Under the pieces are notes generated by a model. The model worked only from the letters and a program-made list of their open reading frames with translations. It was not told the origin of the DNA and made no database searches. A stretch of DNA of 64,000 nt from the human T2T-CHM13v2.0 reference genome, Homo sapiens: the NCBI RefSeq assembly GCF_009914755.1, contig NC_060936.1; one strand, 5' to 3'. This document shows positions 20,236-22,586 of the stretch, piece after piece. How positions within the stretch are numbered: position 1 is the stretch's first letter; each line of letters begins with the position of its first letter. Both the position numbers and the translations under genes were made by a program.

Positions 20236-20629
<394 letters not shown>

Positions 20630-20955
20630 TCATCTATAGACCACCTTCTGAGCTCAACCCCAGATCTACTGAATTAGAATTTCTGTCAGTAAAATATGAA
20701 GACACGTATTTTTAGAAGCTCCTCCAAATGGTGTTTAATTACCCTGATATTTGAGAGTCATTTGTCTAAGCCAAGACAATGGCAATGTCAGGCATTTGAT
20801 TTGAATCATGAACTTAGCCAATAGCAGGAAATCCAGATAGAAAACAGGTTCAGTTACCTCACAAAGGTTGAGAAGGATATCACCAGAGTCCCAACTACGT
20901 GTGCTGCAGATTCATGGCAGAGTCCAATATAAAACAGTGAAATGACAAGCTGTGA

Positions 20956-21795
20956 TGAACCATAGAAATGGTCCCTAACTTCATAGACAAATAAAGAAGC
21001 AGAGTAACTTCATTTATGAGGCTGTGCTCTCTGCCACTCTGCAATGCTTATTCAATAGAGCTGTTTTCCTTATGGAAATCTAAAAGTTTTGCCTCCTAGA
21101 ATGCTAACCATTTGATAAATATTATTACACAATTACAAATTACTTCCAGAAACATGGTAATGGTTTGTGATGTCCTAAATGACCTTGTGGCCCTCAGAAA
21201 GATAACTTGATACCTATTCTCCGAGACTGGATATTCTAGAGTCCTAGAACGTTAGTCACTCTTTAAAGGCCAGAGAAGATAGAAGAGTAGGTTAAAATTA
21301 GATCAAATGGCCAGTAGTGTCAGAGGCATTTGAACCAGAGTAACTCCATGTTGAATAGGGATGGGATAAAATGAGTCTGAGACCTACTGGGCTGTATTCC
21401 CACATGGTTAAGGCATTCTAAGTCACAGGATAAGACAGGAGGTCAACACAAGATATAGGTCATAAAAAATCTTGCTGATAAAACAGGCTGCAGTAAAGAA
21501 GCCAGCTGAAACCCACCAAAACCAAGATGGCCATGAGAGTGACCTCTGGTTGTCCTCACTGCCACATTCCCACCAGCACATGACAGTTTACAAATGCCAT
21601 GGCAACGTCATGAAGTTACCCTATATGGTCTAAAAAGGGAGGCATGAATAATCCACCCTTTTTTTTTTTACCTTATTACCAAGAAATAACCATAAAAATG
21701 GGCAACCAGCAGCCCTTGGGGCTGCTTTGTCTATGGAGTAGCCATTCTTTTATTCCTTTACTTTCTTAATAAACTTGCTTTCACTTAAAAAAAAA
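20956..21795 (+). pseudogene. L1-mediated retrocopy of an unidentified RNA 3' end that terminates in a MER41A LTR
   Basis: Perfect 16-bp TSD AAATGACAAGCTGTGA at 20940-20955 and 21793-21808; AATAAA at 21768-21773; A9 tail at 21787-21795; the LTR lacks U5. Confidence 0.88.
21318..21786 (+). mobile_element. MER41A LTR (ERV1), U3-R only
   Basis: Starts TGTCAGAGGCATTTGAACCAGAGTAACTCCAT; contains ACCAAAACCAAGATGGCC and CCATGGCAACGTCA; stops at AATAAACTTGCTTTCACTT. Confidence 0.92.
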
Positions 21796-22586
21796 TGACA
21801 AGCTGTGACTGCACTCATTAACAGTGAATATCTACTGAGGTTATACAATAGTACAGGCTCTAGACTGAATGATTTATATAAACTATGTGCACTTAAACTT
21901 CACAACAACCCCATAACATTACATTTTTATTATCCCCAAATAACAGTTAAGAAAACTGAGGCACAGAATCATTCACTAAACTACCAAAGGACTGTACAAT
22001 TAGCAATGTAGAGTTTATATAAATCCAGGCATTCTTCCTCCAGCTGCAATCAGGGAGAACTTTCCACTTGTACAGTAAGCTCTGCCAGGCAAAGTAAAAA
22101 CCGACAAACTAGGAGACTATCGTGGAACAGTAGAATCTCCTGGCCATGCTTCCATTACTGGACAGTGACCCGTTGAAGCTCAACTTTCAGAACTGAGAAG
22201 GGTGGATGAGCTTGAAAAGTGTCTGGCTTATGGAAACCTCACATGGCTTCCCATAGTGGGCCCTCTTTGGAGACGTCACCCTTTCACTGCCCAACATTGG
22301 TTCTCAATGACCTCAGTGTGGCAGGTATCCAAAAGCTGGCTCCTCCAGGGTCCTTACCACTAAACAGTTCTCTGAAGTAGAAAATCAGCTCCCCACCAAA
22401 GGAAGATTGTTTGCAGCCTTTTGCTGCTGAGGTTCTTCATCCAGCTTAGGTATCAGCAACACAGGCCAAGACCAGCTCTCCTCTGTGAGAAACTCACATA
22501 TTCTTGCCAAGCCAAAAAGTGAGAGTGAGGGCATCATGCTGCTGTGAGCCTCACATCTCTCTCCAATTCTTCCCTCCCCTGTTCAG

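What the first reader, a model, noticed from the sequence alone, without database searches (positions are those of the whole stretch)
20940..21808. Hidden retrocopy of an unknown transcript that was polyadenylated inside a MER41A LTR
Seen: the apparent MER41A solo LTR stops 13 nt after its own AATAAA (21768-21773), lacks U5 and runs into A9. The 16-mer after the tail (AAATGACAAGCTGTGA) recurs exactly at 20940-20955, 362 bp upstream of the LTR start. The 362 bp (20956-21317) is not a repeat I recognise, and there is no polypurine tract next to the LTR (...GGCCAGTAG|TGTCAG). Established: ERV integrase makes 4-6 bp TSDs, whereas a ~15-bp TSD plus poly(A) marks L1 target-primed reverse transcription. 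Inference: a cellular RNA (lncRNA, 3'UTR or orphan L1 3' transduction) used a MER41A LTR elsewhere as its terminator and was retrocopied here. This is fossil evidence of a germline-expressed, LTR-terminated transcript, and a route for LTR U3 regulatory DNA to spread without retroviral integration.
Basis: partly seen in the sequence, partly recalled or inferred. Interest (0 to 1): 0.78.

Follow-up and report, generated by a model that had tools for sequence, protein, structure and literature searches.

The report
L1-made copy of host–LTR read-through RNA
This is an old L1-made DNA copy of an RNA that ran from ordinary host sequence into a retroviral LTR and was polyadenylated there, and no LTR-bearing source locus for it exists in this assembly.

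Summary
The 16-mer occurs only at 20940-20955 and 21793-21808. The LTR starts at its first base (21318), ends 13 nt after its AATAAA, and runs into A9. It lacks the ~85-bp U5 that 27 of 29 other genomic copies carry. This is one L1-type (target-primed) insertion.

The 362 bp is not ERV-internal sequence. It has no polypurine tract and no similarity to the last 1 kb of two proviral copies. Its only genomic relative is a unique site on chr10 (338 bp, 84% identity). That site lies 14.6 kb downstream of a FAM171-family last coding exon, on the same strand, with no such LTR within 30 kb either side. The predicted LTR-bearing parent is therefore absent from this assembly.

Best reading: a read-in host-to-LTR transcript was retrocopied, and its source insertion or paralog was later lost. 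The rival is a two-RNA chimera.

Context: the same R end followed by poly(A) occurs at 321 genomic places against 1 control hit. Of the 40 exact matches, 24 carry R only, 8 are proviral RNA copies, and only the window copy joins non-ERV sequence to a full U3.

The parts
20940..20955 (+). 5' copy of the 16-bp target-site duplication AAATGACAAGCTGTGA
   Evidence: Exact repeat of 21793-21808 and the only two copies in the window; 0 of 100 shuffles reach 2 matches.
20956..20979 (+). 24 nt of unknown origin at the 5' end of the insert (filler, second template, upstream exon, or parental flank)
   Evidence: Not covered by the chr10 match, which starts at 20980. No match with up to 6 substitutions in 60 kb of chr10 or elsewhere in the window. 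Genome-wide with up to 3 mismatches: 5 other hits against 2 control hits, none on chr10.
20980..21317 (+). 338-nt non-coding host-derived segment; its only relative is chr10:15216311-15216641, minus strand
   Evidence: 84% identity, E 5e-97, and the only non-self hit in the genome. A reciprocal search with 1 kb of chr10 finds only chr12. Flanks of the two loci are unrelated: 134/500, 299/500 and 230/500 shuffles score as high. No Rfam hit. Longest open frame is 51 aa.
21318..21718 (+). Complete U3 of a MER41A-type LTR, from LTR base 1 (TGTCAG...); TATA-like CATAAAA at 21691
   Evidence: 87-89% identical to 29 other copies, whose homology starts within a few bases of 21318. The 3' limit of U3 is inferred from where R-only copies begin. 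TATA-like motif.
21719..21786 (+). R region of the LTR, with AATAAA at 21768-21773 and the cleavage site 13 nt later; the start is approximate (21715-21722)
   Evidence: 24 of 40 poly(A)-tailed copies begin at LTR positions 391-411, median about 402, which corresponds to window 21719-21720. 27 of 29 integrase-type copies continue past 21786 into the full U5.
21787..21795 (+). Poly(A) tail, A9; the last 3 A's could belong to the TSD
   Evidence: Read directly. It replaces the U5 seen in other copies.
21793..21808 (+). 3' copy of the 16-bp target-site duplication

Best explanation
Window 20956-21795 is a single L1-mediated (target-primed reverse transcription) insertion into a site that held one copy of AAATGACAAGCTGTGA. 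The template was a polyadenylated RNA. Its 3' 470 nt were the complete U3 and R of a MER41A-type LTR, cleaved 13 nt after the LTR's own AATAAA. Its upstream part was non-coding host sequence related to a unique chr10p13 site downstream of a FAM171-family gene, in the same orientation. Most likely this was one contiguous read-in transcript: transcription began in host DNA, entered a solo or 5' LTR at LTR base 1, and ended at the LTR poly(A) site. The retrocopy was 5'-truncated or capped with 24 extra nt. The LTR-bearing source does not exist in this assembly, so I infer that the source insertion allele at the chr10 site, or a paralog of that site, was later lost. Shown: the anatomy, the L1-type hallmarks, the non-ERV nature of the 362 bp, its single LTR-free relative, and the absence of a parent. 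Inferred: contiguity of the RNA, loss of the source, and L1 as the enzyme. The retrocopy part alone I put near 0.9. The figure below is for the full statement, including the contiguous read-in and the lost source.
For: An exact 16-bp TSD brackets host part, U3-R and A9. U5 is absent where 27 of 29 other copies have it, and the LTR ends 13 nt after AATAAA. The LTR starts exactly at base 1. A DNA-level LTR/host boundary in the source gives this automatically, whereas a random switch point would hit it in well under 1 in 100 cases. Among the 12 other U3-bearing poly(A)-tailed copies none has its 5' end at U3 base 1 (5' ends at LTR positions 89, 154, 248 and 347; 8 run on into proviral sequence), so there is no sign of a stalling hotspot there. 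The 362 bp is not ERV-internal: no PPT, no BLAST hit to the last 1 kb of the L006 and L012 proviral flanks, and only one genomic relative. The chr10 relative sits in otherwise single-copy DNA, so chr12 is the derived copy. It lies on the gene-sense strand 14,587 bp past the stop of a PF20771 (FAM171A1/A2/B C-terminal) exon, E 1.5e-186. Its divergence (K2P 0.170, p-distance 0.150 with SE 0.020 over 333 sites) is of the same order as LTR-copy divergences (0.115 window to others) and proviral-flank identities of 80-84%. L1-type mobilisation of RNAs ending at this very poly(A) site was common: 321 places against 1 control hit. My crude finder found A-rich-start TSDs of 10-18 nt in 18 of 40 loci.
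Against: No locus in the assembly joins the host part to an LTR. The 28-nt junction string has no second match at up to 3 mismatches. The chr10 site has no such LTR or proviral sequence in 60 kb. The reading therefore needs an unobserved loss. The first 24 nt of the insert do not match chr10, so at least one extra event or a different parent is required. TG is shared between the end of the chr10 homology and the LTR start; this 2-nt microhomology also fits a template switch. The chr10-chr12 distance of 0.170 is somewhat higher than twice the window LTR's own branch (2 x 0.063), about 1.9 SE. That hints chr10 may be a paralog of the source rather than the source itself. The inferred nick site (bottom strand TCATTT/CACTG) is only a loose fit to the L1 endonuclease consensus.
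Confidence: 0.55

Rival explanations
1. Two-RNA chimera. L1 reverse transcriptase began on a poly(A)-tailed MER41 RNA (proviral or LTR read-in), copied R and U3, and at the U3 5' boundary moved to an unrelated chr10-derived RNA. Alternatively the two RNAs were ligated or trans-spliced beforehand. Possibly a third template supplied the first 24 nt. No LTR ever sat at the chr10-type locus.
For: The only relative of the host part has no LTR within 30 kb on either side. The junction string is unique in the genome. There is 2-nt TG microhomology at the junction (alignment). The insert already has a second unexplained joint, the 24 nt at its 5' end. MER41 RNAs ending at this poly(A) site were abundant L1 templates. 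Template switching, RNA ligation and trans-splicing are the accepted routes to same-orientation chimeric insertions (PMC13174262, passages read).
Against: The joint falls exactly at LTR base 1, and I know of no RNA species that starts there. Transcripts initiated in the LTR start at R, about position 400, as the 24 R-only copies show. End-of-template jumps would therefore give R-start junctions. 0 of 12 other U3-bearing tailed copies end at U3 base 1, and 8 of 8 proviral-type copies read through the PPT.
Confidence: 0.25
2. Orphan L1 3' transduction. The RNA began at an L1 upstream of the host segment, read through the L1's own terminator, ended in the LTR, and was 5'-truncated so that no L1 sequence remains. 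This is a sub-case of the read-in model.
For: The architecture is compatible: a 5'-truncated insert, a poly(A) site downstream of unique sequence, and L1-type hallmarks.
Against: None of the 57 sense-strand open frames of 45 aa or more in the 10-kb block L036, which spans the chr10 homolog and about 9.4 kb upstream of it, hits any Pfam family, L1 ORFs included. The 53 plus-strand frames were not scanned. This is a weak test, because old or 3'-UTR-only L1 fragments would be missed and the true source may not be chr10.
Confidence: 0.07
3. HERV-W-style processed pseudogene of proviral RNA. The 362 bp would be internal ERV sequence or a deleted proviral variant.
For: 8 of the 40 exact-match tailed copies are exactly this type: int, PPT, U3-R, then A-tail.
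Against: No PPT before U3. No BLAST similarity to 1 kb of proviral 3' sequence from L006 and L012, while the 8 true cases match it at 77-85%. Only one genomic relative, which lies in unique, LTR-free DNA.
Confidence: 0.03
4. Not an RNA-mediated event. Either an integrase-made solo LTR that later lost U5 by deletion next to a chance A-run, or a DNA-level patch (filler or duplication) with the 16-mer repeat unrelated.
For: None beyond the fact that deletions and A-runs do occur.
Against: The break is at the family's own cleavage site, the one used at 321 places. The exact 16-mer pair is far beyond chance. There is no short repeat flanking the LTR itself and no displaced U5 anywhere in the window.
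Confidence: 0.02

Closest known systems
HERV-W processed pseudogenes (Pavlicek et al. 2002, known to me only through its citation in PMC5016936 and from recall; Grandi et al. 2016 PMC5016936 and Grandi & Tramontano 2017 PMC5537654, passages read)
   Same: A 3' LTR reduced to U3-R, a poly(A) tail, a TSD of L1 length, frequent 5' truncation, and insertion by L1 rather than integrase. MER41 is placed in the same HERVW9 supergroup (PMC4724089 and PMC5753468, passages read).
   Different: Here the sequence upstream of U3 is host DNA, not proviral sequence with a PPT. The template was therefore not viral genomic RNA.
Processed pseudogenes and retrocopies of cellular transcripts that use a transposable-element poly(A) site (LTR-supplied terminators of host genes; recalled, not checked here)
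   Same: A host transcript ends at an LTR AATAAA and is then treated by L1 like any mRNA.
   Different: Normally the parent gene with its LTR is still present. Here only an LTR-free relative survives, and the host part is non-coding and not known to be an annotated exon.
L1 3' transduction and orphan transductions
   Same: Unique downstream DNA is carried to a new site, because transcription ran on to the next usable poly(A) site and the copy was 5'-truncated.
   Different: No L1 was detected upstream of the only known relative (weak test). The terminator is an LTR.
Template-switch or RNA-ligation chimeric retrogenes (U6/L1 type; PMC13174262, passages read)
   Same: Two sequences from unlinked loci lie in the same orientation inside one TSD pair with one poly(A) tail.
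   Different: The joint lies exactly at an LTR boundary rather than at an RNA 5' end or an arbitrary point. The 5' part is not a known abundant small RNA.
SVA
   Same: LTR-derived 3' sequence with its poly(A) signal moved around the genome by L1 (SVA composition as stated in PMC13174262, passage read).
   Different: SVA is a self-sustaining family with many copies. This composite exists once.

Membership tests
L1-mediated retrocopy (TPRT product) | Poly(A) tail directly after a used cleavage site, 10-30 nt past AATAAA | tested here: met
   AATAAA at 21768-21773, 13 nt, then A9. The same end plus A-run occurs at 321 genomic places against 1 control hit.
L1-mediated retrocopy (TPRT product) | Target-site duplication of roughly 7-20 bp bracketing the whole insert | tested here: met
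   Exact 16-mer at 20940-20955 and 21793-21808; 0 of 100 shuffles reach 2 matches.
L1-mediated retrocopy (TPRT product) | Insertion at an L1 endonuclease-type site (TT/AAAA; consensus as quoted in PMC5537654 and PMC13174262) | tested here: inconclusive
   The top strand reads CAGTG/AAATGA, so three T's precede the nick on the bottom strand. This is a loose fit only.
L1-mediated retrocopy (TPRT product) | An identifiable source locus colinear with the whole insert | tested here: not met
   Only 338 of 840 nt have a specific source-like relative (chr10), and that site lacks the LTR.
L1-mediated retrocopy (TPRT product) | Empty site with one TSD copy in species that diverged earlier | not testable with these tools
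   No primate genomes are held.
Integrase-made solo LTR | Complete U3-R-U5 with TG...CA ends | tested here: not met
   U5 (about 85 bp, ending ...cctgtaaca in 27 of 29 other copies) is absent. No U5 elsewhere in the window.
Integrase-made solo LTR | 4-6 bp duplication immediately flanking the LTR | tested here: not met
   The LTR is flanked by ...CCAGTAG and by A9. The only flanking repeat is the 16-mer, 362 bp upstream.
ERV processed pseudogene (HERV-W type) | Proviral internal sequence with polypurine tract directly upstream of U3 | tested here: not met
   No PPT and no similarity to proviral 3' flanks, whereas 8 of 40 tailed copies have both.
ERV processed pseudogene (HERV-W type) | 3' LTR ends at R with a poly(A) tail and an L1-type TSD | tested here: met
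Template-switch chimeric retrogene | Parts from unlinked loci in the same orientation, with no internal poly(A), one TSD pair and one tail | tested here: met
   chr10-like part plus LTR part, with a direct joint at 21317/21318. This describes the structure and does not prove the mechanism.
Template-switch chimeric retrogene | Joint at the 5' end of the first template RNA or at an arbitrary internal point | tested here: not met
   The joint is at LTR base 1. LTR-initiated RNAs start near position 400 (24 of 40 copies). 0 of 12 other U3-bearing copies end at base 1.
MER41A LTR (family label) | Match to the Repbase/Dfam MER41A model | not testable with these tools
Shown here: a high-copy LTR (3653 first-look candidates), 87-89% identical to 29 copies, with PPT-bearing proviral relatives.

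The most novel reading that the evidence does not exclude
The insert is the only surviving record of a MER41A integration that once sat at, or in a lost paralog of, the chr10p13 site downstream of the FAM171-family gene and then vanished from the lineage. That would make it a 'ghost' ERV insertion allele preserved only as an L1 retrocopy of its read-in transcript. It would also prove germline transcription through that site at the time. Beside it, MER41 would be a second HERV group mobilised by L1 on a large scale, mostly as about 70-nt R-only RNAs, although a review abstract calls HERV-W the sole such group.
Probability: 0.35. Interest if true: 0.6.

Novelty: new member of a known kind. Interest (0 to 1): 0.42.

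Why it matters
As a single locus it is a tidy worked example. L1 can move a complete LTR U3, with whatever regulatory sites it carries, together with host sequence and without integrase. A retrocopy can also outlive its source and so record a transcript, and perhaps an ERV insertion, that no longer exists.

The context found on the way may matter more. The R end of this LTR type followed by poly(A) occurs at 321 places, against 1735 places where R runs on into U5. Most sampled cases are R-only copies with L1-type duplications. If this holds up under proper repeat annotation, annotated MER41 fragments are a mixture of integrase and L1 products. It would also mean MER41 LTRs were active promoters and terminators in the germline. 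The statement that HERV-W is the sole HERV group mobilised by L1 (PMC5537654, abstract) would then need qualifying. I found no paper describing this, but the library lacks most subscription journals, and Pavlicek 2002 could not be read.

Tried and rejected
**Flank and origin searches**
- **Flank homology between chr12 and chr10.** A MAFFT alignment hinted at similarity over the TSD. Local alignment against shuffles showed nothing: 134/500, 299/500 and 230/500 shuffles scored as high.
- **Origin of the first 24 nt.** No match in 60 kb of chr10 or in the window with up to 6 substitutions. Genome-wide with up to 3 mismatches there were 5 hits against 2 control hits, none on chr10. Two of them (chr5, chr8) share a 42-bp stretch of unknown nature.
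- **Splice reading.** Under this idea the host part is an exon starting after chr10 ...tttcacag. I rejected it because chr12 keeps 7 of the 9 bases upstream of that AG.

**Searches at the chr10 locus and in the window**
- **LTR at the chr10 locus.** A spliced or read-through LTR terminator there was ruled out: no LTR or proviral match in 60 kb.
- **Upstream L1 at chr10.** No Pfam hit in 57 sense-strand frames.
- **Rfam.** No family in 20800-21900 at E up to 1.
- **Interferon-type motifs.** No TTCNNNGAA or GAAANNGAAA in this LTR copy (motifs recalled from memory).

**Parent identification and other resources**
- **Naming the parent LTR by similarity.** This is impossible: the best copy is 89% identical and the rest are 87-89%.

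Full report
**Observation**

The 16-mer AAATGACAAGCTGTGA occurs at 20940-20955 and 21793-21808. It occurs nowhere else in the 64-kb window, even with two mismatches allowed, and 0 of 100 dinucleotide shuffles gave two matches.

A genome search with 21318-21787 returned 3653 first-look candidates. The 40 that were scored are 87-89% identical. I compared the window with the 29 best other copies:
- LTR homology starts within a few bases of 21318, where the copies read TGTCAG or a close variant.
- After ...AATAAACTTGCTTTCACTT, 27 of the 29 continue with about 85 bp ending ...cctgtaaca, which is U5. L006 is cut there by an Alu and L024 breaks off early in U5.
- The window copy instead has A9 and then the second 16-mer.

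The LTR is therefore a complete U3-R cut 13 nt after its own AATAAA. It sits with 362 bp of upstream sequence inside one 16-bp duplication.

**What the 362 bp is not**

It is not proviral sequence. Copies in proviral context have a polypurine tract (aaaagggaggggRaaa) directly before TGTCAG: L006 and L012, and six more. The window has ...GGCCAGTAG there.

BLAST of the 1 kb upstream of the window LTR against the last 1 kb of the L006 and L012 proviral flanks found nothing. True proviral-type copies match those flanks at 77-85%. The region has no Rfam hit. Its longest open frame is 51 aa and its GC content is 37%.

**What the 362 bp is related to**

The whole-genome search found one other place: chr10:15216311-15216641, minus strand, at 84% identity over positions 25-362. 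A reciprocal search with 1 kb around that place found only the chr12 copy. The chr10 sequence is therefore single-copy DNA, and the chr12 piece is a copy of an internal 338 bp of it, or of a lost close relative.

The flanks of the two loci are unrelated. On the same strand, 14,587 bp upstream, lies a 572-codon open frame that matches Pfam FAM171A1-2-B_C at E 1.5e-186. I take this to be the last coding exon of FAM171A1, but the gene name is recalled and not tested.

The 60 kb around the chr10 site contains no LTR of this family and no proviral sequence. The 28-nt host/LTR junction string has no second match in the genome at up to 3 mismatches.

**Context found on the way**

The last 19 nt of R followed by A8 occur at 321 genomic places at up to 3 mismatches, against 1 hit for the reversed control. 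The same 19 nt followed by the start of U5 occur at 1735 places against 0 control hits. Some of the 321 are segmental duplicates. For example, several chr1 places share one variant, so places are not events.

I examined all 40 exact matches (30 loci, 10 fetched):

| Class | Count | Detail |
|---|---|---|
| R-only | 24 | LTR homology begins at positions 391-411, median about 402 (window ~21719), about 27 nt after a CATAAAA box |
| Begins later in R | 3 | One is interrupted by an Alu |
| Truncated inside U3 | 4 | 5' ends at LTR positions 89, 154, 248, 347 |
| Full U3 preceded by PPT and proviral sequence | 8 | HERV-W-style processed pseudogenes |
| Full U3 preceded by non-ERV sequence | 1 | The window copy |

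My crude finder located 10-18-nt duplications, mostly starting with A-runs, in 18 of the 40 loci. The other 22 had no match under its rules and were not inspected further.

RNAs ending at this LTR's poly(A) site were therefore frequent substrates of an L1-type mechanism. The clustering of 5' ends marks the LTR's transcription start.

**Mechanism**

The TSD length, the tail and the use of the family's own cleavage site make an L1-mediated retrocopy the only serious reading of the insert. I put it near 0.9. The open question is how host sequence came to lie directly before LTR base 1 in the template.

*Contiguous read-in transcript.* A transcript running from host DNA into a solo or 5' LTR explains the exact boundary at no cost. 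It does require that the LTR-bearing source no longer exists. The source could have been an insertion allele at the chr10 site that never fixed, or a paralog that was lost.

*Two-RNA chimera.* Joining by template switch, ligation or trans-splicing (mechanisms as listed in PMC13174262) needs no lost locus. It also fits two observations:
- the TG shared at the joint;
- the unexplained 24 nt at the 5' end.

Its weakness is that the joint must fall exactly at U3 base 1. LTR-initiated RNAs start about 400 nt further in. None of the 12 other U3-bearing tailed copies ends at base 1, and 8 of 8 proviral-type copies read through the PPT.

I weigh these at about 0.55 for read-in (plus about 0.07 for the L1-transduction sub-case) against 0.25 for the chimera.

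**Dating**

Pairwise K2P distances for the LTR are 0.115 (window to 29 others) and 0.104 (among the others). This gives a star-tree branch of 0.063 for the window copy. The 29 were chosen as its best matches, so the figure is biased low.

The chr10-chr12 distance is 0.170 (p-distance 0.150, SE 0.020, 333 sites). The rate used in PMC5016936 is 0.13% per nt per My (passage read). At that rate the estimates are about 48 My for the LTR branch and about 65 My for the pair. The gap is about 1.9 SE. It is compatible with chr10 being the source, but it leans towards chr10 being a paralog of the source.

**Unexplained details**

- The 24 nt at 20956-20979.
- The 16 nt spanning the host/LTR joint (21305-21320) are the best match to the TSD anywhere in the insert, at 11 of 16. 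A match this good occurred within 5 nt of that point in 12 of 2000 shuffles, and anywhere in the insert in 675 of 2000. This is a post hoc observation.
- The chr10 homolog has ATTTCACA at both of its edges.

**Comparison with what is known**

The closest family is the HERV-W processed pseudogene. The window copy shares its 3' anatomy but fails the defining upstream proviral sequence. It is better filed as an ordinary L1 retrocopy of a TE-terminated host transcript, or as a chimeric retrogene.

The review abstract PMC5537654 calls HERV-W the sole HERV group specifically mobilised by L1. My searches found no description of MER41 copies of this kind. Pavlicek et al. 2002 is not held, and the library lacks most subscription journals, so I do not claim priority.

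**Verdict**

As a locus it is a new member of a known kind and of moderate interest. The missing source and the size of the poly(A)-tailed MER41 class are what deserve follow-up.

Noticed in passing
Genome-wide; sampled loci L047-L086 (all 40 exact matches of the window's R end plus A8): The R end of this LTR type followed by poly(A) occurs at 321 places, against 1 control hit, and against 1735 places where R continues into U5. Of the 40 exact matches, 24 are about 70-nt R-only copies starting at a common point about 27 nt after a TATA-like box. Many have 10-18-nt A-rich duplications. 8 are proviral int-PPT-U3-R-poly(A) copies. This looks like large-scale L1 mobilisation of MER41 RNAs, which a review abstract (PMC5537654) reserves for HERV-W.
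   Followed up: partly
L042 (chr5:84804254-84804277, minus strand) and L044 (chr8:136088635-136088658, plus strand): The two best 3-mismatch matches to the insert's first 24 nt share a 42-bp stretch with each other (97.6%) in otherwise unrelated DNA. Nature unknown. The link to the window may be chance, since the search gave 5 hits against 2 control hits.
   Followed up: no
window 21305-21320: The 16 nt spanning the host/LTR joint match the TSD at 11 of 16 positions, the best match anywhere in the insert. 12 of 2000 shuffles do as well within 5 nt of that point. I have no mechanism for this.
   Followed up: partly
L002, minus-strand reading, around positions 1840 and 1490 (chr10 homolog edges): The 8-mer ATTTCACA lies at the start of the chr10 homology and again just after its end. 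The chr12 copy keeps most of the first one, so it is probably not a TSD of an insertion into chr10.
   Followed up: no
window 21655-21680: Inside U3 the window copy has a run of about 11 T's and altered bases where other copies read ...ccccttgtttagcatataatcaag... This is a local replacement or slippage private to this copy.
   Followed up: no
window 20344-20626: This stretch matches sequences inside two unrelated fetched loci (L069, L067) at 78-79% and coincides with the NCBI-masked 20333-20632. It is most likely an Alu, and it lies outside the insert.
   Followed up: no
chr1 places around 120-149 Mb listed: Six listed chr1 poly(A)-tailed R ends (plus one on chr7) carry the same single variant (AATAAG...). 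The chr1 places look like one event copied by segmental duplication, so the 321 places overstate independent insertions.
   Followed up: no
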